From Bacteroidia bacterium (lineage in GTDB: Bacteria; Bacteroidota; Bacteroidia; UKL13-3), in assembly GCA_041675505.1 (NCBI GenBank), contig JBAYTR010000010.1, positions 67,895 through 131,894 on the forward strand: DNA of 64,000 bases. The letters run 5' to 3'. Every line of letters begins with the position of its first letter. The stretch's first letter is position 1. Of this stretch, positions 10,866-25,195 are shown piece by piece. Under the pieces are notes generated by a model. It saw only the letters and a list, made by a program, of their open reading frames with translations, did no database searches and had not been told where the DNA came from. Position numbers and translations under genes: made by a program.

Positions 10866-12704
10866 ATGTGTGGAATTGTAGCTTACATAGGTAAGCAGGA
10901 AGCTTACCCTATTCTTATTAAAGGACTTAAACGCCTGGAGTACCGCGGTTATGATAGTGCCGGAGTAGCACTGCTTAATGACGGGATAACGGTATATAAA
11001 AAAGCAGGGAAGGTTTCTGACCTGGAGCAGTCCGTAGGTGGTCAGGACACTACCTCTCACGTGGGCATAGGCCACACACGCTGGGCCACACACGGAGAGC
11101 CTAACGACCGCAACGCACATCCGCACCTTTCTCAGGATGGTGACTTGGCCATTATTCACAACGGTATAATCGAGAATTATGCGCCCTTAAAAGAAGAACT
11201 CATTAAGCGTGGCCACACGTTTAAAAGTGATACCGATACGGAAGTACTGGTGCACCTGATAGAAGACGTAAAGAAAAAAATGGAGGTTTCTTTACAAGAA
11301 GCCGTTCGTATTGCGCTCTCTGAAGTAGTGGGTGCATACGCCATTGTGGTGTTGTCTAAAAACGACAACAACATGCTCATCGGGGCACGCAAAGGCAGCC
11401 CCATGGTGGTGGGTATTGGCAAAGACGGGGAATACTTTATCGCCTCCGATGCTTCACCCATTATTGAGTACACTAAAAACGTTTATTACTTAGACGACAA
11501 CGAAATCGTTTACATCGAAAACGGGGAAATGACCGTAAAAACGATTGACAACGTGGTGCGCACACCATACATCCAGGAACTGGAAATGAACTTGGAGGCT
11601 TTGGAAAAAGGCGGATACGAGCACTTTATGCTCAAAGAAATTTACGAACAACCCCGTTCCATCATTGACAACTTTCGCGGACGCATTCGTTTAAACAACG
11701 CACAAATTGTGATGGCCGGAGTTGACCAGTTTGAACACAAGTTTAAAAACCTGCCCCGCATTCTTATTGTGGGTTGCGGCACCTCATGGCATGCCGGCCT
11801 GGTGGGTGAATACCTTTTTGAAGAGTTTGCCCGCATACCTGTGGAAGTGGAATACGCCTCAGAGTTTCGTTACCGCAATCCGGTGGTAAATGAAAATGAT
11901 TTTGTAATTGCTATTTCACAATCAGGCGAAACCGCAGATACGTTAGCGGCCATTCAAATGGCCAAAGAAAAAGGAGCTACTATTTTCGGGGTATGTAATG
12001 TGGTGGGCTCATCTATTCCAAGGGCTACACATGCGGGAGCGTACACACATGCCGGTCCGGAGATTGGTGTGGCTTCTACCAAAGCCTTTACGGCTCAGGT
12101 AACCGTTTTAACACTGATGGCTTTAAGCATAGCACAAAAACGCGGTACCATTACCCAAAGCCGAATGCGCGATGTACTTACTGAGTTGGAATCCATTCCA
12201 TCTAAGATTGAAAAAGTTCTGCAACTGAATGACTACATCAAAACCATAGCTGAGCAATACAAGGATGCGCGCAACTTCCTTTACCTCGGTCGCGGATACA
12301 ATTTCCCGGTGGCTTTGGAAGGTGCGTTAAAACTGAAAGAAATCTCTTACATACATGCTGAGGGTTATCCTGCTGCTGAAATGAAGCACGGCCCTATTGC
12401 GCTGATAGATGAAGAAATGCCGGTGGTTGTAGTAGCTACCAAAGACAGCATTTATGAAAAAGTAATCAGCAATATACAGGAAGTAAAAGCGCGCAAAGGA
12501 AAAGTAATTGCCGTGGTAACAGAGGGTGATGATAAGGTAAAAGGCATGGCCGATTACGTAATTGAAATACCTGAAGTGGAAGAATCGCTGGCCCCGCTGG
12601 TTACTACCATTCCGTTGCAACTGCTTTCATACCACATTGCCGTAATGCGTGGCTGTAATGTTGATCAACCCCGTAACCTGGCCAAGTCGGTAACGGTGGA
12701 ATAA
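10866..12704 (+). CDS. glmS: Glutamine--fructose-6-phosphate aminotransferase
   Basis: 612 aa. MCGIVAYIG (N-terminal nucleophile Cys), two SIS domains, C-terminal KSVTVE. Confidence 0.95.
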   Translation: MCGIVAYIGKQEAYPILIKGLKRLEYRGYDSAGVALLNDGITVYKKAGKVSDLEQSVGGQDTTSHVGIGHTRWATHGEPNDRNAHPHLSQDGDLAIIHNGIIENYAPLKEELIKRGHTFKSDTDTEVLVHLIEDVKKKMEVSLQEAVRIALSEVVGAYAIVVLSKNDNNMLIGARKGSPMVVGIGKDGEYFIASDASPIIEYTKNVYYLDDNEIVYIENGEMTVKTIDNVVRTPYIQELEMNLEALEKGGYEHFMLKEIYEQPRSIIDNFRGRIRLNNAQIVMAGVDQFEHKFKNLPRILIVGCGTSWHAGLVGEYLFEEFARIPVEVEYASEFRYRNPVVNENDFVIAISQSGETADTLAAIQMAKEKGATIFGVCNVVGSSIPRATHAGAYTHAGPEIGVASTKAFTAQVTVLTLMALSIAQKRGTITQSRMRDVLTELESIPSKIEKVLQLNDYIKTIAEQYKDARNFLYLGRGYNFPVALEGALKLKEISYIHAEGYPAAEMKHGPIALIDEEMPVVVVATKDSIYEKVISNIQEVKARKGKVIAVVTEGDDKVKGMADYVIEIPEVEESLAPLVTTIPLQLLSYHIAVMRGCNVDQPRNLAKSVTVE

Positions 12705-13568: not shown

Positions 13569-14180
13569 TTAAAAATTACCGTACGAGAGGAAGAACGAAC
13601 CGTTGGTAACTGTTTTCGACTGGGTACCTGTTTCGTTGTACAACTTACATGTGAAGGTGCCTTTTACATCCACATAGGTATCGCCAAAGATGCTGAACTG
13701 CTGTGTGCTGGTAATGTTAAACGTTGCCCCGCTTTGTGTACCGTTAATGCTGCTCCACACCTGTCCGGTGGCATCTACATGCAAAATTTCTACACCATCG
13801 GTAGTAGGGGTGGAATACATGTAATTTCCGGGAGCAAAATAGGCTACAAAATCAGCATCATCAGGGTAGGCACCCTGAAAGCTCATTTCACCCTTGTATA
13901 TGCTCACACCTCCTACGGTATTGTCAGAAAAAATATTGGAATAATAGTAAGCGGTAGAAAACTCAGGCAACGGGCGGGTTTCTTTACTGGAGCCGGCTGC
14001 TTGTTCAAAACCGTTTTTTCCGTCAGTGTAGGTGAGGGAACTGCCATCTACGGTAAGGGCAACATTATATCGGTTGGGAGTAGGAGTTGGGGTGGGTGTA
14101 ACGTTGTTATCATCATCGTCTTTTTTACAACCGGTAAACGCCAAAGCCAAAAGAGCTGCAGCAAAGAATAAATTTTTCAT
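13569..14180 (-). CDS. Hypothetical lipoprotein
   Basis: 203 aa with MKNLFFAAALLALAFTGC lipobox. No family recognised. Confidence 0.5.
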   Translation of the reverse strand: MKNLFFAAALLALAFTGCKKDDDDNNVTPTPTPTPNRYNVALTVDGSSLTYTDGKNGFEQAAGSSKETRPLPEFSTAYYYSNIFSDNTVGGVSIYKGEMSFQGAYPDDADFVAYFAPGNYMYSTPTTDGVEILHVDATGQVWSSINGTQSGATFNITSTQQFSIFGDTYVDVKGTFTCKLYNETGTQSKTVTNGSFFLSYGNF

Positions 14181-14357
14181 ACGTATTAAAATTTAGGTAA
14201 GACAAAAATATACTTTTTGGGATAAAAACCACAGGGAAGTGCAAGTTTTTTGAGGGAGCTGTTGTGTTGCCTTTCTGTTTGATAATTTGAAAGAGACCTT
14301 GTGGTTGCTGTTTGCTGAGCGTTTATTTAGGTAGGGTATTATTTTAGCTATAAGCTA

Positions 14358-14390
14358 CATAAAAGAAAAGCGTAGGCGCAACCTACGCTT
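14358..14390 (-). terminator. Rho-independent terminator closing the island operon
   Basis: Perfect 9-bp stem AAGCGTAGG/CCTACGCTT (14368-14376 / 14382-14390), followed on the minus strand by TTCTTTTAT. It lies 70 nt downstream of the permease stop at 14460. Confidence 0.65.
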
Positions 14391-14459
14391 AGGTTGACCT
14401 CCCATAATTCATACATGTGGCATAATGCTTTATTCAAATCATTATTTGCAAGCTGCTTT

Positions 14460-15242
14460 TTATTTCCATTTCAGAAGTGTCTTTTCAAAAAGATAAATGA
14501 TTCTCGAAAACAAAAGAGCCAAAAGAATTATGCAGATTACAGCAGCCAAAACCAACGAAACATCATAAGTTCCACCAGCTTTAAAAACCCTATGTCCCAA
14601 ACCTTCGTGGGCTGAAATAAATTCGGCAATGAAGGCACCAAGTAAAGCAAAACTAATGTTCAGTTTAAGCGAATTAAAAAGCCAAACCAATGAAGAAGGC
14701 ACGATTAGTTTTGAAAATATCTGCGTCCGTGATGCTCCAAAGGAGTGAAACAGTTTTATTTGTTGAACATCAACTTGTCTTGCACCTTCATAGGATTGAG
14801 TGATTGCAATTACTACTGTTGAAAGTGCAGCCATTATAACCTTTGCATACATACCAGTTCCAAACCACATTATCATCATAGGTGCAATGGAAAAAATTGG
14901 AATTGCTCCAATTGCAATGATGTAAGGTCTTGTCAAGTCAGCAACTCGTTTTGAATACCAAAGGGAAAGTCCGATTGCTGCACCGCAAATGTTGCCAATT
15001 AGAAAACCATAAATCGCTTCCTGTCCTGTAATAAAAATGTCCCTTGGTAAAATACCATTGGAGATGTTTTCAATCAGCGAATGAAAAACTTTGGATGGAG
15101 AAGAAAACAAAAAGAGTTTCTTTTCAGTAGTTGAAATTACAAACTGCCATAACAGCAAGAAAACTGTTAATGGCAACAAACCCAAAATGATACTTATGAT
15201 TTTTCTTTTCATTGTTCGTCTTGCTTTGGAAGTGATTGCCAC
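14460..15242 (-). CDS. ABC transporter permease, NitT/TauT (SsuC/TauC-like) family
   Basis: 260 aa, multi-TM, with an EAA-loop-like FGASRTQIFSKLIVPSSL. Overlaps the upstream ATPase gene by 34 nt. Confidence 0.8.
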   Translation of the reverse strand: MAITSKARRTMKRKIISIILGLLPLTVFLLLWQFVISTTEKKLFLFSSPSKVFHSLIENISNGILPRDIFITGQEAIYGFLIGNICGAAIGLSLWYSKRVADLTRPYIIAIGAIPIFSIAPMMIMWFGTGMYAKVIMAALSTVVIAITQSYEGARQVDVQQIKLFHSFGASRTQIFSKLIVPSSLVWLFNSLKLNISFALLGAFIAEFISAHEGLGHRVFKAGGTYDVSLVLAAVICIILLALLFSRIIYLFEKTLLKWK

Positions 15243-15970
15243 ATTTCAGTAAAGTATTTAGAAAACTTTTGGTCTTGCTTAACTGAAATTGGACTTCTCT
15301 TTTCTACATCAAAAGTTATCTGTAATTCCTTGAATGTTTCGTTTGGCTTGTGATTAAAAATTATTGTCCTATCGCTTACTGTTATTGCTTCATCAATGTC
15401 GTGAGTAATCAGTAAAACAGTTTTGTGATTCTCTTTTGACAAAGCATGTATTTGTGCTTGTAGTTCAAGCCTCGTGTTGTAATCAATTGCTGAAAATGGT
15501 TCGTCCAAAAGCATTATTTCAGAATCTAACATCAGTGTTCTGATAAGAGCAACTTTTTGTCTTTCACCGCCTGAAAGTTGTGAGGGATAACTATGAACCA
15601 AATTTGAGATGCCAAAGCGTTTCAAATACTGCATTACATTTTCTTTTGTTGAGGAATTTATTTTGCCTTGAATTTCAATACCGACAATTATGTTTTGATA
15701 AACTGTTTTCCAAGGGAGCAATAAATCCTTTTGCATCATGTATGCTATTGCAGTTCTCCTGTCTGCAATGTGGTCAAGTTTTACTTCTCCGCTATATTCA
15801 TTGTCAAGTCCGATTATCAAGTTGAAAAGAGTTGTTTTCCCACAACCATTTGGCCCCAAAATGGAAACAAACTCCCCTGAACGAATAGTGAGATTGAGGT
15901 TTTTAAAAACCTCAACGTTACCCGTTGGAGTGCTAAATGACTTGGTTATGTTTTTTAACTCAATGTTCAT
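15209..15970 (-). CDS. ABC transporter ATP-binding protein (SsuB/TauB-like)
   Basis: Walker A GPNGCGKTT, signature LSGGERQ, Walker B MLLDEPFSAID. Confidence 0.85.
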   Translation of the reverse strand: MNIELKNITKSFSTPTGNVEVFKNLNLTIRSGEFVSILGPNGCGKTTLFNLIIGLDNEYSGEVKLDHIADRRTAIAYMMQKDLLLPWKTVYQNIIVGIEIQGKINSSTKENVMQYLKRFGISNLVHSYPSQLSGGERQKVALIRTLMLDSEIMLLDEPFSAIDYNTRLELQAQIHALSKENHKTVLLITHDIDEAITVSDRTIIFNHKPNETFKELQITFDVEKRSPISVKQDQKFSKYFTEMWQSLPKQDEQ

Positions 15971-17514
15971 TAGTGCTTGACAATTTCCTTTTGTGCATTT
16001 GTAACTCTTGATTTTGCAAATGTCGCTTTAGAATAAATTTGATTAAATATTTTATAGCAATATGTTTCTTCTTTATCTCTCAAGGAAAATTGAGAATTGT
16101 TTTTTTGAATGTTTTGATATTCTTCTTCACTCAAATTGTTGTTTGCAAATTCATGTAGCAAACCCTTTCCTCTTTCAACGCCTCCAATTCCAGCCCCTTC
16201 CATCAAAGTCATTTTCTCTCTCGAATAAATGTAGTCAGGCAATAAATCTTTAAATGCTTCTCTCAAAACAAACTTTGTTGTTGTATCTCCTGTTTTTGTC
16301 TTTGCCACTTTTAAAGACGGATGAATGCTCAAAGCATATTCAACTAAAGTTCTGTCAAGAAAGGGTTCACGAACTTCAACGGCATATTTCATTCCTGTTT
16401 TGTCAACTCTCAAAAGTTGTGTCCTGTATAAATCGTTTAGAAGATTTTTAATTTCATTTTGAAATTCTGTTTCATCAGGAAGGGAAAGAAAATCACCATA
16501 GCCGCCAAATATTTCATCGCTGCCCTCGCCACACAAAACAATTTTGAAACCTTTGTCGTGTGCTAACTCTGCCAATTTCATTGAAAGTAAAGAGCCACGA
16601 ATAGGATTTGGTTCAAATGTCTCAATGGAATAAATCACATCAGGAACATTTTGAAGCAAATTTTCTTTGCTTGTTTTAATATGATGAAACTTCAAATTCA
16701 AATCATTGCAAAGTCGCTTTGCATAAATCACGTCTTCGCCTGAATCTTCACCGACAATTAAAGCTGTAACATCATTGTGATAACTGCAACACAATAAATG
16801 AACTATTGAACTGTCAATGCCACCACTTAAAAAAGTAGCAATAGGCAAATCTGTTTCAACTCTTTTCTTTACAGCCAATTCAACAAGTTCACGAACATTA
16901 TTTGTAATTGTGCTTACTGAATCAGTATTCCATTTTGTGCTTGGCGTTTTATAATACTGGAAAACTCCTTCATTGGTTATGTAGTGTGCTGGTTTAAGTT
17001 CTTCAAATGTTTCTACTTCCAAATCAGTAAAGGATTTCATTTCAGAAGAAATATAAACTACATTCTCACTCTTGCAGTAGAAGAATGGTTTCACTCCAAA
17101 AAAATCTCTTGCTCCGAAAAACTTATTTTGAACGGAATCATAAATTAGAAATGCAAACATTCCTTCTAACTGCTGCAAGAAATTTATTCCGTGTTCTTCA
17201 TAAAGATGAACCAAAACTTCTGTGTCGCAATCTGAAATAAACTTGTGTCCTTTCATTTGCAATTCTGATTTCAAATTTTTGTAGTTGTAAATCTCACCGT
17301 TAAAAACAACTCCTATTGTTTTGTTCTCATTGAAAAAAGGTTGTGTGCCATTTGGTCTGTCAACTATTTTAAGGCGAACACTTCCTAAGATTGAATTTCC
17401 TATTTGAACTTGTTTAGGTGCAGTATCTCCCCGATGCTCAATTTTTTTGAGCATAAACTCCATTTCTGTTTTGCCTTTTGGAGTAGGATTAATAATTGCT
17501 GCGATACCACACAT
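15970..17514 (-). CDS. Asparagine synthase (glutamine-hydrolysing)-family enzyme, AsnB-like
   Basis: 514 aa. MCGIAAII (class II amidotransferase Cys2) plus PP-loop FLSGGIDSS. Its stop and start overlap the ATPase gene by 1 nt. Confidence 0.8.
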   Translation of the reverse strand: MCGIAAIINPTPKGKTEMEFMLKKIEHRGDTAPKQVQIGNSILGSVRLKIVDRPNGTQPFFNENKTIGVVFNGEIYNYKNLKSELQMKGHKFISDCDTEVLVHLYEEHGINFLQQLEGMFAFLIYDSVQNKFFGARDFFGVKPFFYCKSENVVYISSEMKSFTDLEVETFEELKPAHYITNEGVFQYYKTPSTKWNTDSVSTITNNVRELVELAVKKRVETDLPIATFLSGGIDSSIVHLLCCSYHNDVTALIVGEDSGEDVIYAKRLCNDLNLKFHHIKTSKENLLQNVPDVIYSIETFEPNPIRGSLLSMKLAELAHDKGFKIVLCGEGSDEIFGGYGDFLSLPDETEFQNEIKNLLNDLYRTQLLRVDKTGMKYAVEVREPFLDRTLVEYALSIHPSLKVAKTKTGDTTTKFVLREAFKDLLPDYIYSREKMTLMEGAGIGGVERGKGLLHEFANNNLSEEEYQNIQKNNSQFSLRDKEETYCYKIFNQIYSKATFAKSRVTNAQKEIVKH

Positions 17515-17518
17515 TTTA

Positions 17519-18322
17519 TTATTTTTGTTCTTCTTTATTAAAATTTGAAAACCAAGGTCTGCTTCTTATTCCTTTACGAAAAGAGTAAATCTGTAAACTC
17601 GGAAGGTCGGGGGCAATCAATTCTTTTTCTTCATCCGATGTGTATGTGAGAAAAACATTTTGAAAAAAATTCTTTTCTACATACTGCTTTTCAATTTGAT
17701 TCATTGTAATGTAAGCATATGCCGATTCATCAGTTGAATTAAAACGCAAGTCGCCAAAAATTTGATTGTTTGAATATCTGTAAGAATGTTTACCTGCTGA
17801 TTTTTTTAAAAGTTCAAATGATTCTCTACCTTTTAAAAACTCTGGTATGTTATGACTTCCATTCTCATTTATAATTGCATTGATTAATGCATTCATGTCT
17901 TTTAAGTGATGTGATTTTGCAAAAGGCATTAGCACTTCGGACATGAGAACATGTGTGTAATTGAATTCATTTACAACGTTTCTTATCCCTTTGAAATAGC
18001 TTTTGTAATCTTCGGGCTTATAGCCATTAAGCATTGCATGTGTGTCAGTAAAAATTAATGTTAGCTGAGCATCCAATTTGTAATGCTTTTCAATAACTCG
18101 CAGAAAACCGAAAAGATTTAGCAACGCATCAAAGTCGTATTTGTCGGGGTACTTTTTATCGGATGCGCCCCAATATGAAATGAAACGAATATATTTCTTG
18201 TTATGCTTTACTCTTTCATTAACATACTTATCTAACTCCGCAATTTGTTTCTTGCGAACCTCAATCTTTTTTGCTGCTAAAAAAGAGCCGATTGTTTTTC
18301 CGTTTCGCAAATTGCTATTCAT
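17519..18322 (-). CDS. Hypothetical 267-aa protein; possible remote DIT1/PvcA (isonitrile synthase)-like fold
   Basis: The coding call rests on its tight operon position. The function is tentative. YIRFISYWGASDKKYPDKYDFDALLNLFGFLRVIEKHYKLDAQLTLIFTDTHAMLNGY parallels the remembered DIT1_PvcA pattern (PAFPxKS..PDxAE..L..L....I...Y.PGA...I.SDG.VF.DL). LQIYSF...RPWF parallels RLSIH...TPWH. Confidence 0.4.
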   Translation of the reverse strand: MNSNLRNGKTIGSFLAAKKIEVRKKQIAELDKYVNERVKHNKKYIRFISYWGASDKKYPDKYDFDALLNLFGFLRVIEKHYKLDAQLTLIFTDTHAMLNGYKPEDYKSYFKGIRNVVNEFNYTHVLMSEVLMPFAKSHHLKDMNALINAIINENGSHNIPEFLKGRESFELLKKSAGKHSYRYSNNQIFGDLRFNSTDESAYAYITMNQIEKQYVEKNFFQNVFLTYTSDEEKELIAPDLPSLQIYSFRKGIRSRPWFSNFNKEEQK

Positions 18323-20189
18323 TGCGATAAAAATATTTGCTTTCGTGTTTTAGTTTAAACAATTCCCGTGAAGACAAAAAAACAATAACTAAACAAATTA
18401 AGAAACAATAAAAAATATAATTGCCATATTTAATTGTATGTAAAACTTCTTTGTATTCTATAGGGTCGCTATTCGGAACAACTTCTTGCCTTGCAAATTC
18501 ATGTTTCAATTCATCTAATTTTGGAGTTTTAGGATGTAAAATGTGAAACATACTTGATGTAATCTCAAGTAAAATAAATAACGAGCCTATAAAGTAAAGT
18601 AACGTGGGTTTTCTTACATGCTTCCATAATGAACTTTCTATAAACAGTCGAAAGTTTTCAACTTTATTAGTGAACAGTTTTAAGAGATATAAAAAGGGCA
18701 ACAATGGTGTTAAAAATATTCGCCAACCTGCCCACTTTTTTGTGTGTAACGTTTTTCTTTCAAGTTCAAAATAATGCTTTTCATTTTGACGATATTCAGC
18801 TAACAAATCATCAGCTACGAACAAACTGTAATCAATAGTTTGAGGAACAGGTATGCCCTCAGCCCTATATCGCAAAAGCGTTAATTCTTTCAAATCATCT
18901 TTAATCGGATTAGTTTTTGAGTAATACAAATTGCCAATATCTCTCCACTCTCTTAATCTATCTACATAGTATTTAAGAATTTCTTCAAGTGAAAATTTCT
19001 CTTTTTTATTATTGATAAGAAACTGGATATAACTTTTAATAGTTTCATCTGCGATTAAGAGGTTAAGCAATTCGTCTTGGGTATCATCATCATATTTGAG
19101 TTTTGTTTTCAGAAAGTGAATTAAGCCCGTTGTATCGCTTTTCTTTAGATACGAATGAATTCTGTGTAAATTTTTATCAATGCCGTAGAGCAACCCTTTA
19201 AGTTTTTCTGAATTTTCAGGTGCATTATTACCTAAGATGCCCGTAAACATGAAACTTTGATCGTTGTCATACGCTAAGTTTTCTAATTCAATAATTTTTT
19301 TGTTTGCTTCTCCATTATGCTTATCAAGTAAGAAATCAATACTTATAAAATCACATGAGAATGAGACAGAATTATTGCAATAGTCATCGTTATCTACTTC
19401 TTCGTCAATGGTTCCATTATTTTTATATGTTTTTTTACTTACTTTACGAAGTTCATATCCAAAATCTTTTCTTTCTTCTACCAATGTAGATGTAGATGTT
19501 TTGTATTGCTCATAATAGATATGACCAATACAAAATCCTGTTGAAGGAGTATCATAACAGATGATTGATTGAGTAATATTTTCTTTTCCGTATTGAGACG
19601 GAAAATTTTGTGGATTCTTATATAATCTACCTAAGTCATTAGACGAACTAGTTAAATCTCCACTTCCTACAGCCAGAAAAGCAATTTTTGAAACTAATCC
19701 ACCAATAACCTTTGTATTGGTTTTTAATATTTTCTCTTTAAAGAGGTTTACCCCATTCTCTTTAAAGACTAAATTGTTACTATTGTCAACATCTAAACAT
19801 TGTGAAAGATTGAGATTAAACTCTTTATTACAAATATCTTTCTTTGTTTTAATGTCAAGCAAGTCCTGAAACTTTTTAAGTTCTGCTTGTAGCTTGGTGG
19901 CATCGCAATGGTTCAAATAGATAAGATGAGATGGGTCGCAAATGGCTGCGTCTGCTAAACCAAGCAAAACGGAAAAGGTTGCAAATCCATCACCCTTTAA
20001 TTTCTTGCTCTGGTCAAACCTGAAATCATTTTTTGTTCCAATTATAACTACTTCTAATTCCGAAAATGGTGTGTCATGGAAATCATTGCCATAGTATGCA
20101 ACATAAAATGGAAGGTATAATACCGTGTCAGTTGATACGGCAATTTCAAGTTTGTCTTTTGTTCGTATGGAAGAAAATCCTGAATCCAT
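18315..20189 (-). CDS. 624-aa membrane-anchored protein: N-terminal type-2 binding-protein-like domain with no signal peptide, plus three C-terminal TM helices
   Basis: N-terminal VLYLPFYVAYYGNDF and FSVLLGLADAAICDPSHL align with YLIYLPFYIAQEKGFF and ATVLKGEAQFGIGDPVF of the adjacent binding-protein gene. Hydrophobic helices fall at about aa 487-506, 529-551 and 590-607 (nt ~18369-18731). Confidence 0.5.
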   Translation of the reverse strand: MDSGFSSIRTKDKLEIAVSTDTVLYLPFYVAYYGNDFHDTPFSELEVVIIGTKNDFRFDQSKKLKGDGFATFSVLLGLADAAICDPSHLIYLNHCDATKLQAELKKFQDLLDIKTKKDICNKEFNLNLSQCLDVDNSNNLVFKENGVNLFKEKILKTNTKVIGGLVSKIAFLAVGSGDLTSSSNDLGRLYKNPQNFPSQYGKENITQSIICYDTPSTGFCIGHIYYEQYKTSTSTLVEERKDFGYELRKVSKKTYKNNGTIDEEVDNDDYCNNSVSFSCDFISIDFLLDKHNGEANKKIIELENLAYDNDQSFMFTGILGNNAPENSEKLKGLLYGIDKNLHRIHSYLKKSDTTGLIHFLKTKLKYDDDTQDELLNLLIADETIKSYIQFLINNKKEKFSLEEILKYYVDRLREWRDIGNLYYSKTNPIKDDLKELTLLRYRAEGIPVPQTIDYSLFVADDLLAEYRQNEKHYFELERKTLHTKKWAGWRIFLTPLLPFLYLLKLFTNKVENFRLFIESSLWKHVRKPTLLYFIGSLFILLEITSSMFHILHPKTPKLDELKHEFARQEVVPNSDPIEYKEVLHTIKYGNYIFYCFLICLVIVFLSSRELFKLKHESKYFYRNE

Positions 20190-20191
20190 AT

Positions 20192-21205
20192 TTAATTTGT
20201 CTTGGTATCTGAAATAGATTTTTCGGCAAAGGAATTATCTACTGCATCTGATGTTGGTTTCATTTCCTTCATGTCGCCTATATCAACTCTTACTTGTATC
20301 GCTTTCTGCCAAGCTTCATCACTCATTACAGCATGGTCTGGAATTGTTTTATCTGCTACCATTCTTTTTACAGCATTTGCAACAACTGCTTTGTCAAGGT
20401 TGGGGAAAAGTTTTGCTGCAATTTCTGCCGTTCCTGCTTCATCTGTGTGGCAATACTGTAATGCCTTTTCAATTGCGTTTACAAATTTTTGAACAGTTTC
20501 CTTATTGGCGTTTATGTATTCCTCTGTCGTTGTTAAGCCAGTGAAAGCAAATCTTCCATAAAACTGCGGTGAGGAGTAAACAACTTTGTAACCTTTACTT
20601 TCAGCTATTGATGTTCCTGGTTCTAAGTCCATCGCAATATCGGCACTTCCATTTTCAAGTAAAGCCAACTGTGAACCAATTGGGGCTTGAACAATGATTG
20701 TGTTTTTTAATAAATCTCCTCCTTTCATGAGTGTCTTTTTCATCAAAGCGTAATTTGTTGACGGGTCGGGGAATGTTCCAACTTTCAAACCAGCCAAATC
20801 ACCAGGCTGTTCTATGGTTTTGATGTTATCCTTGTTTGTTACACCCCAAATTGTTACTCCGTCAACGATGGAACCAATTACTTTTCCTTTTGCTCCTTTC
20901 TCTCGTGATATGGCAGTGAATACAGGGTCGCCAATTCCAAATTGTGCTTCGCCTTTCAAAACGGTTGCAAAAACCTGGTCGTCATTACCTGAAAACTTTA
21001 CAGTAATTTCAAGTCCTTCGTCTTTGAAAAAACCCTTCTCCTGTGCAATGTAGAAAGGTAGGTAAATTAGATACTTCTCTTGTCCCCACTGCGCTACTAT
21101 TACTTTGGTGACTTCGGTGGTTTTTGGCTTTTCAGTGTTGCATGAATTGCATCCTCCCAAAATGATTGTGAGAACCAGTAATGCTGCTAAAACTATTTTA
21201 TTCAT
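20192..21205 (-). CDS. ABC substrate-binding lipoprotein, NMT1/THI5/SsuA-like
   Basis: 337 aa with MNKIVLAALLVLTIILGGC lipobox and LPFYIAQEKGFFKDEGLEITV, typical of NMT1/SsuA-type binding proteins. Confidence 0.75.
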   Translation of the reverse strand: MNKIVLAALLVLTIILGGCNSCNTEKPKTTEVTKVIVAQWGQEKYLIYLPFYIAQEKGFFKDEGLEITVKFSGNDDQVFATVLKGEAQFGIGDPVFTAISREKGAKGKVIGSIVDGVTIWGVTNKDNIKTIEQPGDLAGLKVGTFPDPSTNYALMKKTLMKGGDLLKNTIIVQAPIGSQLALLENGSADIAMDLEPGTSIAESKGYKVVYSSPQFYGRFAFTGLTTTEEYINANKETVQKFVNAIEKALQYCHTDEAGTAEIAAKLFPNLDKAVVANAVKRMVADKTIPDHAVMSDEAWQKAIQVRVDIGDMKEMKPTSDAVDNSFAEKSISDTKTN

Positions 21206-21261
21206 TTTGACGGTTTTAATTGCTATTTTATATTGTAAAGATAGTTATTCACTCGATAAAT

Positions 21262-22788
21262 TCAACAATTGCTTCCCTTCTCAAAAAGTGTTTTCCAAAG
21301 GAATGTATCAAACAATTGTGCTAAGTTGTAAGTCAAAAACAAAAATAAAGTTCCTCCCAATAGTATTGCCAAAAACCATTTCCAAAGGTTGCTGTAAATT
21401 TTGAGTTTGCCATCAATGAATGCTACATCAGCATTGAATTCTTTATCATTATTAAGGATTCTCTGAATGTCTTCTTTTTCTAAAAGGTCAGTGTAGCGTT
21501 CTTTCAAATTTGTGTAGCTGTCAACGAATCTTTTGCGTTGCTCTTTCACTTCCCACTTTGCTACTAAGTAATAAAGGAATGAGCCGAACAAAAAAACAAT
21601 TGAAAGAACTGCTGTGTCAAGTGTAAACACATTTACAAAATCTCCATTGCCCAAAACTTTTATTGCGATTGCAGAAAAGTAAAAAGTGATTAGCGCCAAA
21701 GAACTTTTTTGAAAACCACTTGCAAATGTTTCAATGACTTTGTTTGCTCTGTTGTTGAAGTCAAGCAACTGGTCAGAAATTTTATTTCTGATTTCAATGT
21801 ATTGCTTGATGTTCTGCTTCTCGTAAACTTTGTAACTTGATTGAATAGATTGAAATGGATGCCCTTTCAATTCTAATTCACCACTATTTTCAAAGTGAAG
21901 TGAAATAATGTTTCTGGCTAAACCAATTTTATCATTGAGGTTTCCGCCACAATAAACCCAATTGTATATATTGAAATATTCTTTCGTTCCATCTATCGGC
22001 AATGCTTTTACATCAACTTTTCCTTTGATTGATTTATAACCGTTGATTTTAAATTCAAGTTCGTTGGCTTTTAGCGAAGTAATGTCAAACAAATAAACAA
22101 CGGAAAGCACAACAGCATAATGATTGAAAAGCAAACACAGCTTGCTGTGTTTTGCATTTTCAATTTGCAACTGAAAATCATCAGGCGTTAAGTTGTGTTC
22201 TTCAATGTTGGTGTAATTACTTGCTGAAAGAATGCTATCAAGGCGTTTATGCCTGTCAGCAAATGTTTGAGTAGGTGTGGTAGCACCTATTTGTGTAAAG
22301 AAAATATTTGCTGTATTGAATGGCTTGTCAAGATTCAACACTTTGAAGTTTACAAAAGGTGTGTTTGATAAAACACGATTGAAAACCGCATACGCTTCTG
22401 CTACTGACAAACTTTCAAGTGTTGCTGTGAAGATTTCTAAATCATATATAGAAATATTGTTTGAAATATTTCCTTTAGTGATTTTGAAGGTTGCTGTGAT
22501 TGGTTCGCCTTCCTGATGCAAATATTCCTTATCAAGTTCAGTTTTGAAATCGGTAAAATTTGAACTGGTTGAATAAAATGATTTTGGGTCGGCTTCTCCA
22601 AATTTGATTGTGAATGTTAATTGGTCGTTAGGCTCTAAAAAGTTGTAGGCGGTTTGAATGCTTGCAACCTCTGTCGATGAAAAGTTTGTTGCTGACAATT
22701 CACAAATAAATTCTTTGTCATTCTCTGAAACAGTTGTTTGAGAATAAGTAGAGAAAAAAGAGTGAATGAATTTATCAGCAAATTGCAT
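21262..22788 (-). CDS. Hypothetical 508-aa protein: ~360-aa unrecognised soluble domain plus a C-terminal 2TM-linker-1TM anchor
   Basis: No signal peptide. Hydrophobic helices fall at about aa 362-380, 390-411 and 467-490 (nt ~21319-21705). The start ATG overlaps the upstream stop (TAATG at 22786-22790). Confidence 0.5.
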   Translation of the reverse strand: MQFADKFIHSFFSTYSQTTVSENDKEFICELSATNFSSTEVASIQTAYNFLEPNDQLTFTIKFGEADPKSFYSTSSNFTDFKTELDKEYLHQEGEPITATFKITKGNISNNISIYDLEIFTATLESLSVAEAYAVFNRVLSNTPFVNFKVLNLDKPFNTANIFFTQIGATTPTQTFADRHKRLDSILSASNYTNIEEHNLTPDDFQLQIENAKHSKLCLLFNHYAVVLSVVYLFDITSLKANELEFKINGYKSIKGKVDVKALPIDGTKEYFNIYNWVYCGGNLNDKIGLARNIISLHFENSGELELKGHPFQSIQSSYKVYEKQNIKQYIEIRNKISDQLLDFNNRANKVIETFASGFQKSSLALITFYFSAIAIKVLGNGDFVNVFTLDTAVLSIVFLFGSFLYYLVAKWEVKEQRKRFVDSYTNLKERYTDLLEKEDIQRILNNDKEFNADVAFIDGKLKIYSNLWKWFLAILLGGTLFLFLTYNLAQLFDTFLWKTLFEKGSNC

Positions 22789-23825
22789 TAGCTATTGCCG
22801 TTTTGTCTGTTGCTGAAATATTGATAGCCTTGTTCCGATTTGATTTTCACATATCTTGTTCCGTCTGCATCTTTTTCCGCTGTGATTATTGTTTCAAGGT
22901 TCGGAATATCTTCTTTCAAGTGCAAATCAATTTGGCTTGTCAAGGGGATAGTGTTTAGAAATTTTGCCCTAATCTTTGCCTTTACAATCGTGAACTGTTC
23001 GTCAAAAGGTGTTCTTGGTTTTGATGGCAATTGTCGGATTTGAGTTTTGATTTCTGCAACATCAAGGTTGGAATCGAAGGGAGTGTAGTTTCCAATTGCT
23101 GTGTCCAAATACTCTTGCATGTCAAAATTGTCGTTGGCTCTGAAATAGCGAACGGTGCTATTACGCAAATGCAAATAATCTTGTGGGTGTTTCTTTTTCA
23201 GTTTTGTAAATATGCCTTTGTCAATTGCTTCAAAAGCATTTTCTGTATTGTCCTCGTCTGAATAAACTTTGGTGAGTTCTAAAAAATCTTTCCACCAATA
23301 ATGAGAAAGGTTTGGATTGGTGTCATACACCAAAACATTAGTTACAGTTTGGTCGCTGTTTAGCGAACAAACAAATGCTTTGAAAACCTTTTTCTTTAAT
23401 GGAAGTCCTCTTGAAATAGTAAAATTTATTTCGTTTAAGAAATCGCTGTGGTCTGCTTTACAGATTACAAGTTTGTTGACGCTGTTTTCTGTTACCAATG
23501 CTTGAACAACAATTCCCTTTTGAATCTCAACTCCAAGTTTCAACATTTTTGCTTGTGCCTCTTGCTCTTTCTTCAAAAGTCGTGTTACTATTGTTGATGC
23601 AATTGCAGGAAATTCTTCACCTGCAATAATTTTCGTAATCTGTCCTCTTACTTCTGTTGTGTCGCTGTCAAACTTGAAGTTTCTACCACTGCTGCCTGTC
23701 GTAATGAGATTTACCAGTCCTTGCAAGTATGTGTTGAAGTCAGCACCATAAATTGATTGCTCAATTGATTCAACCGCTTGTTCATGAATGTCAACCTTAA
23801 ATATTTGTATGGCTGTTATGTCCAT
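22788..23825 (-). CDS. NdpA/YejK (Pfam NA37)-like nucleoid-associated protein
   Basis: The ORF track starts at GTG 23891, but ATG 23825 (MDITAIQIFKVDIH...) is the likelier start. The layout (EEFPAIASTIVTRLLKKEQ, IQKGIVVQALV, VICKADHSDFL, LVYDTNPNLSHYWWKDFLEL) matches my recollection of the NA37 family. No HMM search was run. Confidence 0.5.
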   Translation of the reverse strand: MDITAIQIFKVDIHEQAVESIEQSIYGADFNTYLQGLVNLITTGSSGRNFKFDSDTTEVRGQITKIIAGEEFPAIASTIVTRLLKKEQEAQAKMLKLGVEIQKGIVVQALVTENSVNKLVICKADHSDFLNEINFTISRGLPLKKKVFKAFVCSLNSDQTVTNVLVYDTNPNLSHYWWKDFLELTKVYSDEDNTENAFEAIDKGIFTKLKKKHPQDYLHLRNSTVRYFRANDNFDMQEYLDTAIGNYTPFDSNLDVAEIKTQIRQLPSKPRTPFDEQFTIVKAKIRAKFLNTIPLTSQIDLHLKEDIPNLETIITAEKDADGTRYVKIKSEQGYQYFSNRQNGNS

Positions 23826-24303
23826 GTTGTATATTTTAAAATGTGAAAAATTGTTGGTTAACGGGTGCTGATAAAGCGTTGGCGATTGCACACTTTTGAT
23901 TTCGCCTTTGGGTTGGCTTGTACGTGAGCTGCAAATGCAAATGTGTACTGGTGTTTTTTGTTTTCCAGCTGAAGCGTTTACAATTCAAGGAGGTGTCGTT
24001 GGTGTCAAGTTTTGTCAAAAAGTTCATTTTTCATCTGTCAGTTTAATGTTAACACTGTTGCCATAGGGTTTCCGGCAGCTTTTTTATATGCGAAGGTTTG
24101 CCTGGTTTTGTAAATATATCAATTTGCTCATAACTCTTCAAAAAGGGGGTTGTTTTTTGAATACTTTGTGATGTAAATCGCTTTGAAAATCTTGGCCAAT
24201 TAGGCCACGGGAATTTGCAAGACAGGTGAACAGGTTAGGTTGCATAGCATATTGGTTTTCAACGGCAAATTAGAAGGTTTTTTATTACTGTGCAAATTTA
24301 TTA

Positions 24304-24627: not shown

Positions 24628-25035
24628 TTACTTCATCTCCTGGCACAACTCAATCAGTACTCCGTTGGTGGCTTTGGGGTGCAGGAAACAAATGAGTTTA
24701 TTATCAGCACCGCGCTTGGGTGTTTCATGGATAAATTGAAATCCGGCTGCTTCTAAACGGGTTATTTCTGCTTCAATGTCTTCTACATCAAATGCAATGT
24801 GGTGTATGCCCTCGCCTTTTTTCTCAATAAATTTTGCAATGGCACTGTCGGCTGAGGTGGCTTGCAGCAACTCTACTTTGCTTTCTCCGGTTTTAAAAAA
24901 AGCGGTGATTACGTGTTCGCTTTCCACGCCCTCTTCTTTGTAGCAGGGTGTTCCCAAAAGTGCGGCAAACAGGCTTTTGGATGCTTCTATATCTTTAACG
25001 GCTATGCCCAGGTGTTCAATCTTGCGTAAATTCAT
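24628..25035 (-). CDS. Methylmalonyl-CoA epimerase / VOC (glyoxalase)-family protein
   Basis: Likely start MNLRKIEHLGIAVKD at 25035. HLGIAV...GEGIHHIAFDV...LHPKATNGVLIELCQ is the typical epimerase pattern. Confidence 0.75.
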   Translation of the reverse strand: MNLRKIEHLGIAVKDIEASKSLFAALLGTPCYKEEGVESEHVITAFFKTGESKVELLQATSADSAIAKFIEKKGEGIHHIAFDVEDIEAEITRLEAAGFQFIHETPKRGADNKLICFLHPKATNGVLIELCQEMK

Positions 25036-25195
25036 GCAGCAAAGTAACCTCAAAAAATAAAAACCCGCCAAGGTTTACTTTCCCCGGCAGGGAAGAAGCC
25101 CGTAAACGCTCAGTAGTTAAGAGGTAAAATAACCGTTCCGTCTACAGGATTTAACCTGAAAACAGGGCAGGAGTGGATATTATTTAGAATTGTTC

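What the first reader, a model, noticed from the sequence alone, without database searches (positions are those of the whole stretch)
18315..20189. A substrate-binding-protein fold lacking a signal peptide and fused to three C-terminal TM helices
The N-terminus of the 624-aa protein aligns by eye with the secreted lipoprotein encoded immediately upstream. VLYLPFYVAYYGNDF matches YLIYLPFYIAQEKGFF. FSVLLGLADAAICDPSHL matches ATVLKGEAQFGIGDPVF. It starts MDSGFSSIRTKDK with no signal peptide or lipobox. It ends with three hydrophobic helices (about aa 487-506, 529-551 and 590-607). Between them lies a ~280-aa acidic, helix-rich region that I cannot place. This looks like a duplicated ligand-binding module kept in the cytoplasm and tethered to the membrane. 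That is a sensor- or effector-like architecture rather than a transport component. Its C-terminal anchor topology (two TM helices, a linker, one TM helix) echoes that of the 508-aa protein in the neighbouring module.
Basis: seen in the sequence. Interest (0 to 1): 0.6.

Follow-up and report, generated by a model that had tools for sequence, protein, structure and literature searches.

The report
Cytoplasmic membrane-tethered copy of a binding protein
A 624-residue protein is a signal-peptide-less duplicate of the neighbouring transporter's binding protein, held at the inner face of the membrane by a helical hairpin, in a rare mobile six-gene uptake-plus-enzyme cassette whose job is still unknown.

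Summary

Two corrections. Only two C-terminal TM helices are universal, and the charge distribution indicates N-in/C-in.

X is a rare, unannotated family (38 clusters in 1.84 billion). In every long-enough locus but one it lies in the cassette SBP-X-(PvcA/IsnA-like)-AsnB-like-ATPase-permease, often in mobile or defence islands. A Planctomycetes variant carries a radical-SAM domain N-terminal to the X-like domain. That fusion argues for a cytoplasmic location and for coupling to enzymes.

X is swapped between cassettes as a gene-sized allele (61% identity where flanking genes are 91-96%) yet is under purifying selection.

Best reading (inferred): X is a cytoplasmic receptor for the imported ligand that feeds the cassette enzymes and/or gates the importer, like the NrtC/CmpC regulatory domain but on a separate, membrane-anchored protein. 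The similarity to the neighbouring 508-aa protein is not supported.

The parts
18315..20189 (-). X: 624-aa membrane-tethered cytoplasmic paralogue of the cassette SBP (whole gene including stop)
   Evidence: ORF. The family is 15 proteins or 38 clusters at 50% identity. There is no Pfam, NCBIfam or PADLOC family for it.
18831..20156 (-). Type II periplasmic-binding-protein fold of the NMT1/SsuA/NrtA class, aa 12-453, with no signal peptide
19719..19898 (-). About 60-aa helical insertion (aa 98-157) within the fold; highly variable between alleles
   Evidence: Insertion relative to the SBP. Helices H97-158 in the model. Residues 120-147 have the second-lowest identity between close alleles (23%; the lowest is 17% at 499-514).
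18609..18830 (-).
   Evidence: Kyte-Doolittle below 1.5 in the window protein. pLDDT about 50. No counterpart segment is detected in most relatives.
18537..18608 (-). Conserved TM helix B (aa 528-551)
   Evidence: Kyte-Doolittle 1.8. Present in all 26 relatives, preceded by K/R. The E542/S545/H549 face is conserved only in the closer subfamily.
18429..18536 (-). Extracytoplasmic loop (aa 552-587), modelled as a beta-hairpin
   Evidence: Strands E563-570 and E579-586 in the model. The loop is net neutral or acidic across the family.
18360..18428 (-). Conserved TM helix C (aa 588-610)
   Evidence: Kyte-Doolittle 2.1. Present in all relatives.
18315..18359 (-). Basic cytoplasmic tail ending in the conserved K-Y-(V/F)-Y-R motif (aa 611-624) plus the stop codon
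   Evidence: Y619 is conserved in 21 of 26 and Y621 in 17 of 26 relatives. Y621 and R622 are invariant in the 15-member alignment.
20192..21205 (-). Cassette SBP: NMT1-family lipoprotein (337 aa). Its stop codon lies 2 nt before the X start.
   Evidence: Pfam NMT1 E 2.8e-30. Lipobox LGGC and a 2-nt gap. It is 56-91% identical across cassettes.
17519..18322 (-). Y: 267-aa PvcA/IsnA (isonitrile synthase)-fold enzyme. Its start overlaps the X stop by 8 nt.
   Evidence: AF2 pLDDT 91. Foldseek hits to PvcA 3e59 and PIsnA 9dhm at E about 1e-6, TM 0.5-0.6. The family profile reaches two proteins carrying PF05141.
15970..17514 (-). AsnB-like glutamine amidotransferase / asparagine synthetase (514 aa)
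   Evidence: TIGR01536 scores 354 bits against a cut-off of 267. E 3e-61 to E. coli AsnB 1ct9 over the full length.
15209..15970 (-). ABC ATPase (253 aa, core NBD only, no regulatory extension)
   Evidence: Pfam ABC_tran E 9e-33. Best NCBIfam hits are SaoA, TauB and SsuB types.
14460..15242 (-). ABC permease (260 aa) of the SsuC/TauC/SaoP type
   Evidence: BPD_transp_1 E 3e-28. NCBIfam results.

Best explanation
X is the inner-face counterpart of the cassette's lipoprotein binding protein. It arose by duplication of the SBP gene and lost the signal peptide and lipobox. It gained surface insertions and a C-terminal two-helix membrane hairpin with a basic K-Y-x-Y-R tail. It kept the motifs that, at canonical positions of this fold, line the inter-lobe cleft (placement inferred).

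Most likely it sits beside the SsuBC/TauBC-like importer and binds the imported small molecule, or a close derivative, as it emerges in the cytoplasm. It would then present that molecule to the cassette enzymes (the PvcA/IsnA-like Y and the AsnB-like amidotransferase), feed ligand occupancy back on the transporter, or both. The feedback role is what the SBP-like C-terminal regulatory domains of NrtC and CmpC do.

Shown here: homology to the SBP, the fold, absence of an export signal, N-in/C-in charge bias, strict synteny, purifying selection, and an enzyme-fused relative.

Inferred: ligand binding, identity of the ligand with that of the SBP, contact with the permease or enzymes, and the direction of any regulation.
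For: - Paralogy with the adjacent SBP. Fifteen of 43 conserved X columns carry the same conserved residue as the SBP family, including Y25/P27, D85, P215-S216-T217, G244 and G317. By analogy with this fold these map to the cleft; this was not checked on the model.
- Cytoplasmic location: no signal peptide, positive-inside pattern in most of the 26 relatives, and 10 Cys. L025 has a CxxxCxxC radical-SAM domain fused N-terminally to an X-like PBP followed by TM helices.
- Coupling to the importer and enzymes: the order SBP-X-(Y)-AsnB-NBD-TMD holds in every locus long enough to show it except the L025 variant. These include Bacteroidota and a Zixibacteria MAG. The genes have 2-nt gaps or overlaps.
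- The NBD has no regulatory domain of its own (253 aa).
- X is functional: dN/dS is 0.12, like its neighbours.
- Precedent: the NrtC-CRD is about 30% identical to NrtA, binds the substrate and controls transport (PMC10945777). The CmpC-CRD locks or releases the NBDs on nitrate binding (PMC13287603).
Against: - No ligand is known for either protein, and no binding or interaction was tested.
- X alleles are exchanged independently of the SBP, enzymes, NBD and TMD (61% against 91-96%). That is unexpected for a subunit that must dock tightly on conserved partners, unless docking uses the conserved parts.
- X evolves much faster overall than the SBP (mean pairwise identity 41% against 73%).
- Y is missing in two cassettes (L008, L017), so hand-off to Y cannot be the universal role.
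- Known regulatory SBP-like domains are fused to the NBD, not membrane-anchored.
- Frequent location in defence or mobile islands suggests a conflict role that this model does not explain.
Confidence: 0.45

Rival explanations
1. Conflict/defence sensor-effector. The cassette is an anti-phage or inter-bacterial conflict system, and X is its specificity or sensing component. Its binding-protein domain senses a small molecule or a foreign protein. Its TM hairpin then perturbs the membrane or controls the importer. The enzymes make or modify a protective small molecule.
For: - The cassette lies in a low-GC island.
- Its neighbours elsewhere include IS elements, SLFN_AlbA_2/HATPase_c_4 genes, toxin-antitoxin genes, a Vsr/Dcm/HATPase_c_3 module, a Bub E1/E2/Ubl operon, a SLFN helicase and an AAA_15 ATPase.
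- X is exchanged as a gene-sized allele with saturated synonymous divergence inside an otherwise 90%-identical cassette. This is typical of specificity determinants.
- In L025 the best match of the fused radical-SAM domain is the prokaryotic viperin model (E 1.3e-11).
- An optional TM+DUF5919-like gene moves position within cassettes.
Against: - X, SBP, Y and AsnB have no PADLOC match.
- X has no SLATT or other effector-domain signal.
- The viperin score (44 bits) is far below the cut-off of 180, and MoaA-type models also match.
- Island location is association only, from about ten contexts with no background statistic.
- No copies were found on phages, plasmids or viral contigs.
- An SBP-dependent importer is not a known defence component.
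Confidence: 0.22
2. Binding-protein-fold enzyme. X is itself a catalyst, as Thi5, MqnA/MqnD and DszB are. It acts at the membrane on the imported compound or on a lipid-linked substrate.
For: - Thi5, MqnD, MqnA and DszB appear among the structural neighbours.
- C279-D280 and D67/D80/D85 are nearly invariant.
- The window protein has a His at the position equivalent to Thi5's His66.
Against: - Transitive alignment through the SBP profile puts Cys or Gly at the position of Thi5's Lys62 (residue numbering from memory). The His is not conserved in the family, where H, F and Y all occur.
- The conserved columns are largely those also conserved in the non-catalytic SBP.
Confidence: 0.1
3. An ordinary extracytoplasmic tethered binding protein, exported by a cryptic route and anchored by its C-terminus. 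It would act as a second receptor for the importer.
For: In a subgroup (P0005, P0008, P0019) a third hydrophobic segment exists. If it spanned the membrane it would put the N- and C-termini on opposite sides.
Against: - No signal peptide is seen in any member examined.
- A 480-residue N-terminal domain cannot be exported without one (established knowledge of Sec/Tat export).
- Most relatives have exactly two TM helices with basic flanks.
- X has 10 cysteines.
- The L025 relative has a radical-SAM fusion.
Confidence: 0.04

Closest known systems
C-terminal regulatory domains (CRD) of the cyanobacterial ABC ATPases NrtC and CmpC
   Different: X is a separate polypeptide. It is anchored by its own TM hairpin rather than fused to the NBD by a hinge helix. 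It carries about 115 residues of insertions and occurs with two enzymes. It is allelically swapped between cassettes. No regulation has been shown.
NMT1/THI5-SsuA-TauA-NrtA class substrate-binding proteins (Pfam PF09084/PF13379)
   Same: Same fold and motif set, with demonstrable homology to a member encoded next door.
   Different: X has no signal peptide or lipobox and has a C-terminal membrane module. It is too divergent to reach the Pfam NMT1 threshold. It is predicted to be cytoplasmic.
Thi5 HMP-P synthase and other binding-protein-fold enzymes (MqnA/MqnD, DszB)
   Same: Cytoplasmic proteins with the same fold. Thi5 tops the Foldseek list.
   Different: The Thi5 catalytic Lys/His pair is not conserved in the X family. 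These enzymes are soluble and not membrane-anchored.
Radical-SAM-PBP-TM fusion protein of a Planctomycetes MAG (L025, 693 aa)
   Same: It has an X-like binding-protein domain (hhalign 96%, E 4e-9) followed by C-terminal TM helices. It sits next to an SBP 55% identical to the window's, plus an NBD and a TMD.
   Different: It has an N-terminal CxxxCxxC radical-SAM domain. Its partner enzyme is class II aaRS-like instead of IsnA-like plus AsnB-like. An SDF-family symporter is added. It is itself uncharacterised.

Membership tests
NMT1/SsuA/NrtA-class type II binding proteins | Two-lobed alpha/beta type II PBP fold with a C-terminal helical subdomain | tested here: met
NMT1/SsuA/NrtA-class type II binding proteins | Sequence homology to bona fide members | tested here: met
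   hhalign against the cassette SBP family gives 96.5-96.9% probability, E 7e-10 and 2.6e-10. BLASTP E 8e-4.
NMT1/SsuA/NrtA-class type II binding proteins | Passes the Pfam NMT1/NMT1_2 gathering threshold | tested here: not met
   None of 26 family members gives an NMT1 hit, even at E<=10.
NMT1/SsuA/NrtA-class type II binding proteins | Export signal and extracytoplasmic location as the receptor of an ABC importer | tested here: not met
   No signal peptide or lipobox; SBP residues 3-20 have no counterpart in X. The charge pattern indicates N-in topology.
NrtC/CmpC-type cytoplasmic regulatory SBP-like domain | Cytoplasmic paralogue of the cognate SBP | tested here: met
   The cytoplasmic location is predicted, not measured.
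NrtC/CmpC-type cytoplasmic regulatory SBP-like domain | Fused to the C-terminus of the nucleotide-binding subunit through a hinge helix | tested here: not met
   X is a separate gene product. The cassette NBD is 253 aa with no extension.
NrtC/CmpC-type cytoplasmic regulatory SBP-like domain | Binds a ligand and thereby inhibits or activates transport | not testable with these tools
   This needs ITC or DSF and transport assays.
Thi5-type HMP-P synthase | PLP-binding Lys62 and substrate His66 in the G-x-x-D-x-G-L-K-x-x-x-H segment (residue numbers from memory of the Thi5 literature) | tested here: not met
   The SBP-profile-to-Thi5 alignment, chained to the X-to-SBP alignment, places Cys84/Gly at the Lys position. 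The His position holds H, F or Y.
SLATT-type two-TM effector domains | Match to SLATT profile HMMs (Pfam/PADLOC) | tested here: not met
   X has no hit. It shows no similarity to the weakly SLATT-like C-terminus of the 508-aa neighbour.
Known anti-phage defence systems (PADLOC-DB v2) | Any cassette-specific protein matching a defence-system model | tested here: not met
   Only the generic ABC ATPase matches (mad3 and others). X, SBP, Y, AsnB and TMD have none.
PvcA/IsnA/DIT1 isonitrile-synthase family (for gene Y) | Fold and profile homology to PF05141 members | tested here: inconclusive
   The fold is matched (Foldseek E 1e-6, TM 0.5-0.62), and the family profile reaches two PF05141 proteins. 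However, Pfam scores are below the gathering threshold (17.9 against 26.4 bits). Catalytic residues were not checked.

The most novel reading that the evidence does not exclude
The cassette is a previously unrecognised, horizontally mobile conflict (chemical-defence) system. An SBP-dependent importer, a membrane-tethered cytoplasmic copy of its own binding protein, and small-molecule-modifying enzymes act together. The enzymes are IsnA-like plus AsnB-like, or in a variant a viperin-like radical-SAM domain fused to the receptor plus an aaRS-like ligase. X is the exchangeable specificity determinant, maintained as ancient allelic classes.
Probability: 0.2. Interest if true: 0.85.

Novelty: new variant of a known kind. 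Interest (0 to 1): 0.62.

Why it matters
Cytoplasmic copies of a transporter's binding protein were previously known only as domains fused to the ATPase of cyanobacterial nitrate and bicarbonate importers. This family shows the same idea realised differently. It is a free-standing, membrane-anchored receptor genetically locked to two enzymes, and in one lineage physically fused to a radical-SAM enzyme. That suggests imported molecules can be captured at the inner face of the membrane and passed straight to modifying enzymes.

The cassette is mobile and crosses phyla, and it often sits among defence genes. It also carries one gene that is swapped as divergent alleles. It may therefore be a new kind of accessory or conflict system. 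All of its parts are unannotated in current databases, apart from generic domain or family matches.

Tried and rejected
- **Family libraries.** Pfam, NCBIfam, PADLOC and PHROGs scans of X gave nothing meaningful. The only PHROG hit is a 24-residue hydrophobic match.
- **PDB sequence search.** The X profile gave no hit at E<=10.
- **Neighbouring module.** The idea that the 367+508-aa module belongs to the system was rejected. L004's 364+519-aa genes at the same position are unrelated, and no homologue of either protein was found in any of the other 22 loci then held. The pair matches phage families phrog_30064 and phrog_32650.
- **TM regions.** The TM regions of X and the 508-aa protein show no similarity.
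- **Positive selection.** This was rejected as the cause of X's divergence. Synonymous sites are saturated in swapped pairs (pS 0.72 against 0.30-0.44 for neighbours), and dN/dS is 0.12 in an unswapped pair. Allelic replacement by recombination explains the data.
- **Island boundaries.** No tRNA gene or convincing flanking direct repeat marks the island.
- **Mobile carriers.** There are no copies on sequenced plasmids, phages or IMG/VR contigs.
- **Literature.** Searches for a described cassette of this composition found nothing. The PIsnA structure paper is not in the library.
- **Tool limits.** The AFDB Foldseek library was unavailable. Model coordinates could not be inspected, so cleft geometry and the packing of the tail were not examined.
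Full report
**Locus.** The finding lies in a low-GC island of about 10 kb (GC 0.32-0.36 against 0.43-0.47 in the flanks). Six tightly packed genes sit on the minus strand:
- an NMT1-family lipoprotein SBP (20192-21205);
- the 624-aa ORF, called X here (18315-20189);
- a 267-aa ORF, Y (17519-18322);
- an AsnB-like amidotransferase (15970-17514);
- an ABC ATPase (15209-15970);
- an SsuC/TauC-type permease (14460-15242).

The X start codon lies 2 nt after the SBP stop codon. The X stop overlaps the Y start by 8 nt. X is the longest possible frame, so no hidden upstream signal peptide exists.

**Checking the observation.** BLASTP of X against the SBP aligns X 23-202 with SBP 46-218 (26% identity, E 8e-4). 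X has only 15 close relatives in 5.8 billion proteins and 38 clusters in an exhaustive HMMER scan of 1.84 billion representatives. All are unannotated.

A 26-sequence X profile against a 7-sequence profile of cassette SBPs gives 96.5% probability and E 7e-10 in local mode. In global mode it gives 96.9% and E 2.6e-10, aligning X 1-453 with SBP 1-337. The only SBP segment with no counterpart in X is residues 3-20, the signal peptide and lipobox. X instead carries insertions at 58-68, 98-157, 281-298 and smaller ones.

**Membrane module and topology.** Only two hydrophobic helices (about 528-551 and 588-610) are present in all 26 relatives. K/R-rich sequence precedes and follows them, and the loop is neutral or acidic. 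This pattern indicates N-in/C-in. The most conserved element of the module is the C-terminal K-Y-(V/F)-Y-R tail.

Two further observations favour a cytoplasmic location. X has ten cysteines, against one in the mature SBP. In a Planctomycetes MAG (L025), a 693-aa protein has an X-like domain (hhalign 96%, E 4e-9) that also resembles the SBP family (94%). It is followed by TM helices and preceded by a radical-SAM domain with a CSLDCIYC cluster motif. An Fe-S radical-SAM domain can only function in the cytoplasm.

**Context.** In every locus long enough to show it, X is flanked by the SBP upstream and by (Y), AsnB-like, ATPase and permease genes downstream. The one exception is the L025 variant described below. 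The loci come from Bacteroidota and a Zixibacteria MAG. Y is absent in two cassettes (L008, L017). A TM+DUF5919-like gene is inserted at different positions in two others.

Y is a PvcA/IsnA-fold protein (model pLDDT 91; Foldseek E about 1e-6), and its profile reaches two PF05141 proteins. The AsnB-like protein exceeds the TIGR01536 cut-off and aligns along its full length with E. coli AsnB.

The SBP clade is larger than the X family detected so far (at least 255 proteins). In L025 it is combined with the radical-SAM-PBP-TM protein, a class II aaRS-like ligase and an SDF symporter.

Neighbours of the cassette are frequently mobile or defence genes. Examples are IS elements, SLFN_AlbA_2/HATPase_c_4, toxin-antitoxin genes, Vsr/Dcm, a Bub E1/E2/Ubl operon, a SLFN helicase and AAA_15. 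The window's own neighbours, the 367- and 508-aa proteins, match two phage families. They are not conserved next to the cassette and show no similarity to the X C-terminus.

**Evolution of X.** X is the least conserved gene in 28 of 36 cassette pairs (mean identity 41%, against 73% for the SBP). In the closest pair (window against L024) the identities are SBP 91%, Y 96%, AsnB 92% and X 61%. DNA identity falls from about 0.9 to about 0.55 inside X and returns to 0.93 exactly at the X/Y junction. Synonymous divergence in X is saturated (pS 0.72), whereas its neighbours have pS 0.30-0.44. In an unswapped pair (L001 against L023), X has dN/dS 0.12, like its neighbours at 0.09-0.155. X is therefore a functional gene kept as old, divergent alleles that recombine into otherwise conserved cassettes. 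Lobe 1 (aa 1-90), aa 148-177, aa 260-379 and TM-B stay the most conserved. The insertions, lobe-2 surface, linker and TM-C vary.

**Interpretation.** Fifteen of 43 conserved X columns carry the same conserved residue as the SBP family. They include LYLPFY, the D of the (C/G)DP turn, P-S-T at a helix N-terminus, and FTG. These are positions that typically form the cleft in this fold, although I could not inspect model coordinates.

The simplest reading is that X binds the same or a closely related small molecule on the cytoplasmic side. The closest precedent is the SBP-like C-terminal regulatory domain of NrtC and CmpC. That domain is about 30% identical to NrtA, binds nitrate and governs the transporter (PMC10945777, PMC13287603). 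Here the cassette ATPase has no such domain (253 aa). The paralogue is a separate protein with its own membrane anchor, translationally coupled to enzymes, and in L025 fused to one. I therefore favour a receptor that captures the imported ligand at the membrane and feeds the enzymes, gates the importer, or both (confidence 0.45).

Three rivals remain:
- A conflict or defence role with X as the exchangeable specificity element (0.22). Island context, allele swapping and a weak viperin-like signal in L025 support it. No defence-model match does.
- A binding-protein-fold enzyme (0.10). The Thi5 Lys/His pair is not conserved.
- An ordinary exported tethered SBP (0.04). This is contradicted by all the topology evidence.

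**Novelty.** A cytoplasmic SBP paralogue attached to an ABC importer is a known principle. The architecture here has no described counterpart in the libraries or literature searched. That architecture is a free-standing binding-protein fold with a C-terminal TM hairpin and a conserved tail, obligate partnership with IsnA-like and AsnB-like enzymes, a radical-SAM-fused variant, and gene-sized allelic exchange. I rate it a new variant of a known kind, with interest 0.62. The biological role of the cassette and the ligand remain unknown.

Noticed in passing
window 18315-20189 compared with L024, L002 and L010: X is replaced as a gene-sized allele. In cassettes whose other genes are 91-96% identical, X is 61% identical with saturated synonymous divergence. 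The break is sharp at the X/Y junction.
   Followed up: yes
L025:5893-7974 (Planctomycetes MAG GCA_019456225.1): A 693-aa protein combines a radical-SAM domain (CSLDCIYC; best NCBIfam match is prokaryotic viperin at E 1.3e-11, well below the cut-off), an X-like binding-protein domain and C-terminal TM helices. It is followed by a class II aaRS-like gene, an SBP 55% identical to the window's, an NBD, a TMD and an SDF symporter, in an island with a SLFN helicase and an AAA_15 ATPase.
   Followed up: partly
window 17519-18322 (-): The 267-aa gene Y is a confident PvcA/IsnA (isonitrile synthase)-fold protein with an invariant T-D-T-H motif and an R-P-W-F C-terminus. It is unannotated and is found almost only in this cassette (29 proteins).
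   Followed up: partly
window 21262-23891 (-): The 508-aa and 367-aa genes form a separate two-gene module. They match phage families phrog_32650 (E 4e-45) and phrog_30064 (E 1e-34). The 508-aa protein has a weak SLATT-like hit and the 367-aa protein a weak NA37-like hit. This may be a prophage-derived defence pair.
   Followed up: partly
L007:9112-9996 and L012:5244-6020: An optional extra gene (TM segment plus a weak DUF5919-like domain; the two copies are homologous at E 2e-18) sits at different positions inside two cassettes.
   Followed up: partly
L023:7097-9542: One cassette lies directly beside a Bub-type operon (BubE, ThiF E1, Prok-E2_E, Multi_ubiq) and an M78 peptidase gene. This is another defence-island context.
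   Followed up: no
window 14000-24000: A low-GC island (0.32-0.36 against 0.43-0.47) lies between glmS (10866-12704) and a glyoxalase-family gene (24628-25071). No tRNA gene or clear flanking repeats were found.
   Followed up: partly
cassette SBPs (A3) across L001-L026: The SBP is unusually conserved (56-91% identity, 66% between Bacteroidota and Zixibacteria) compared with every other cassette gene. This implies a strongly constrained ligand and recent cross-phylum transfer.
   Followed up: partly
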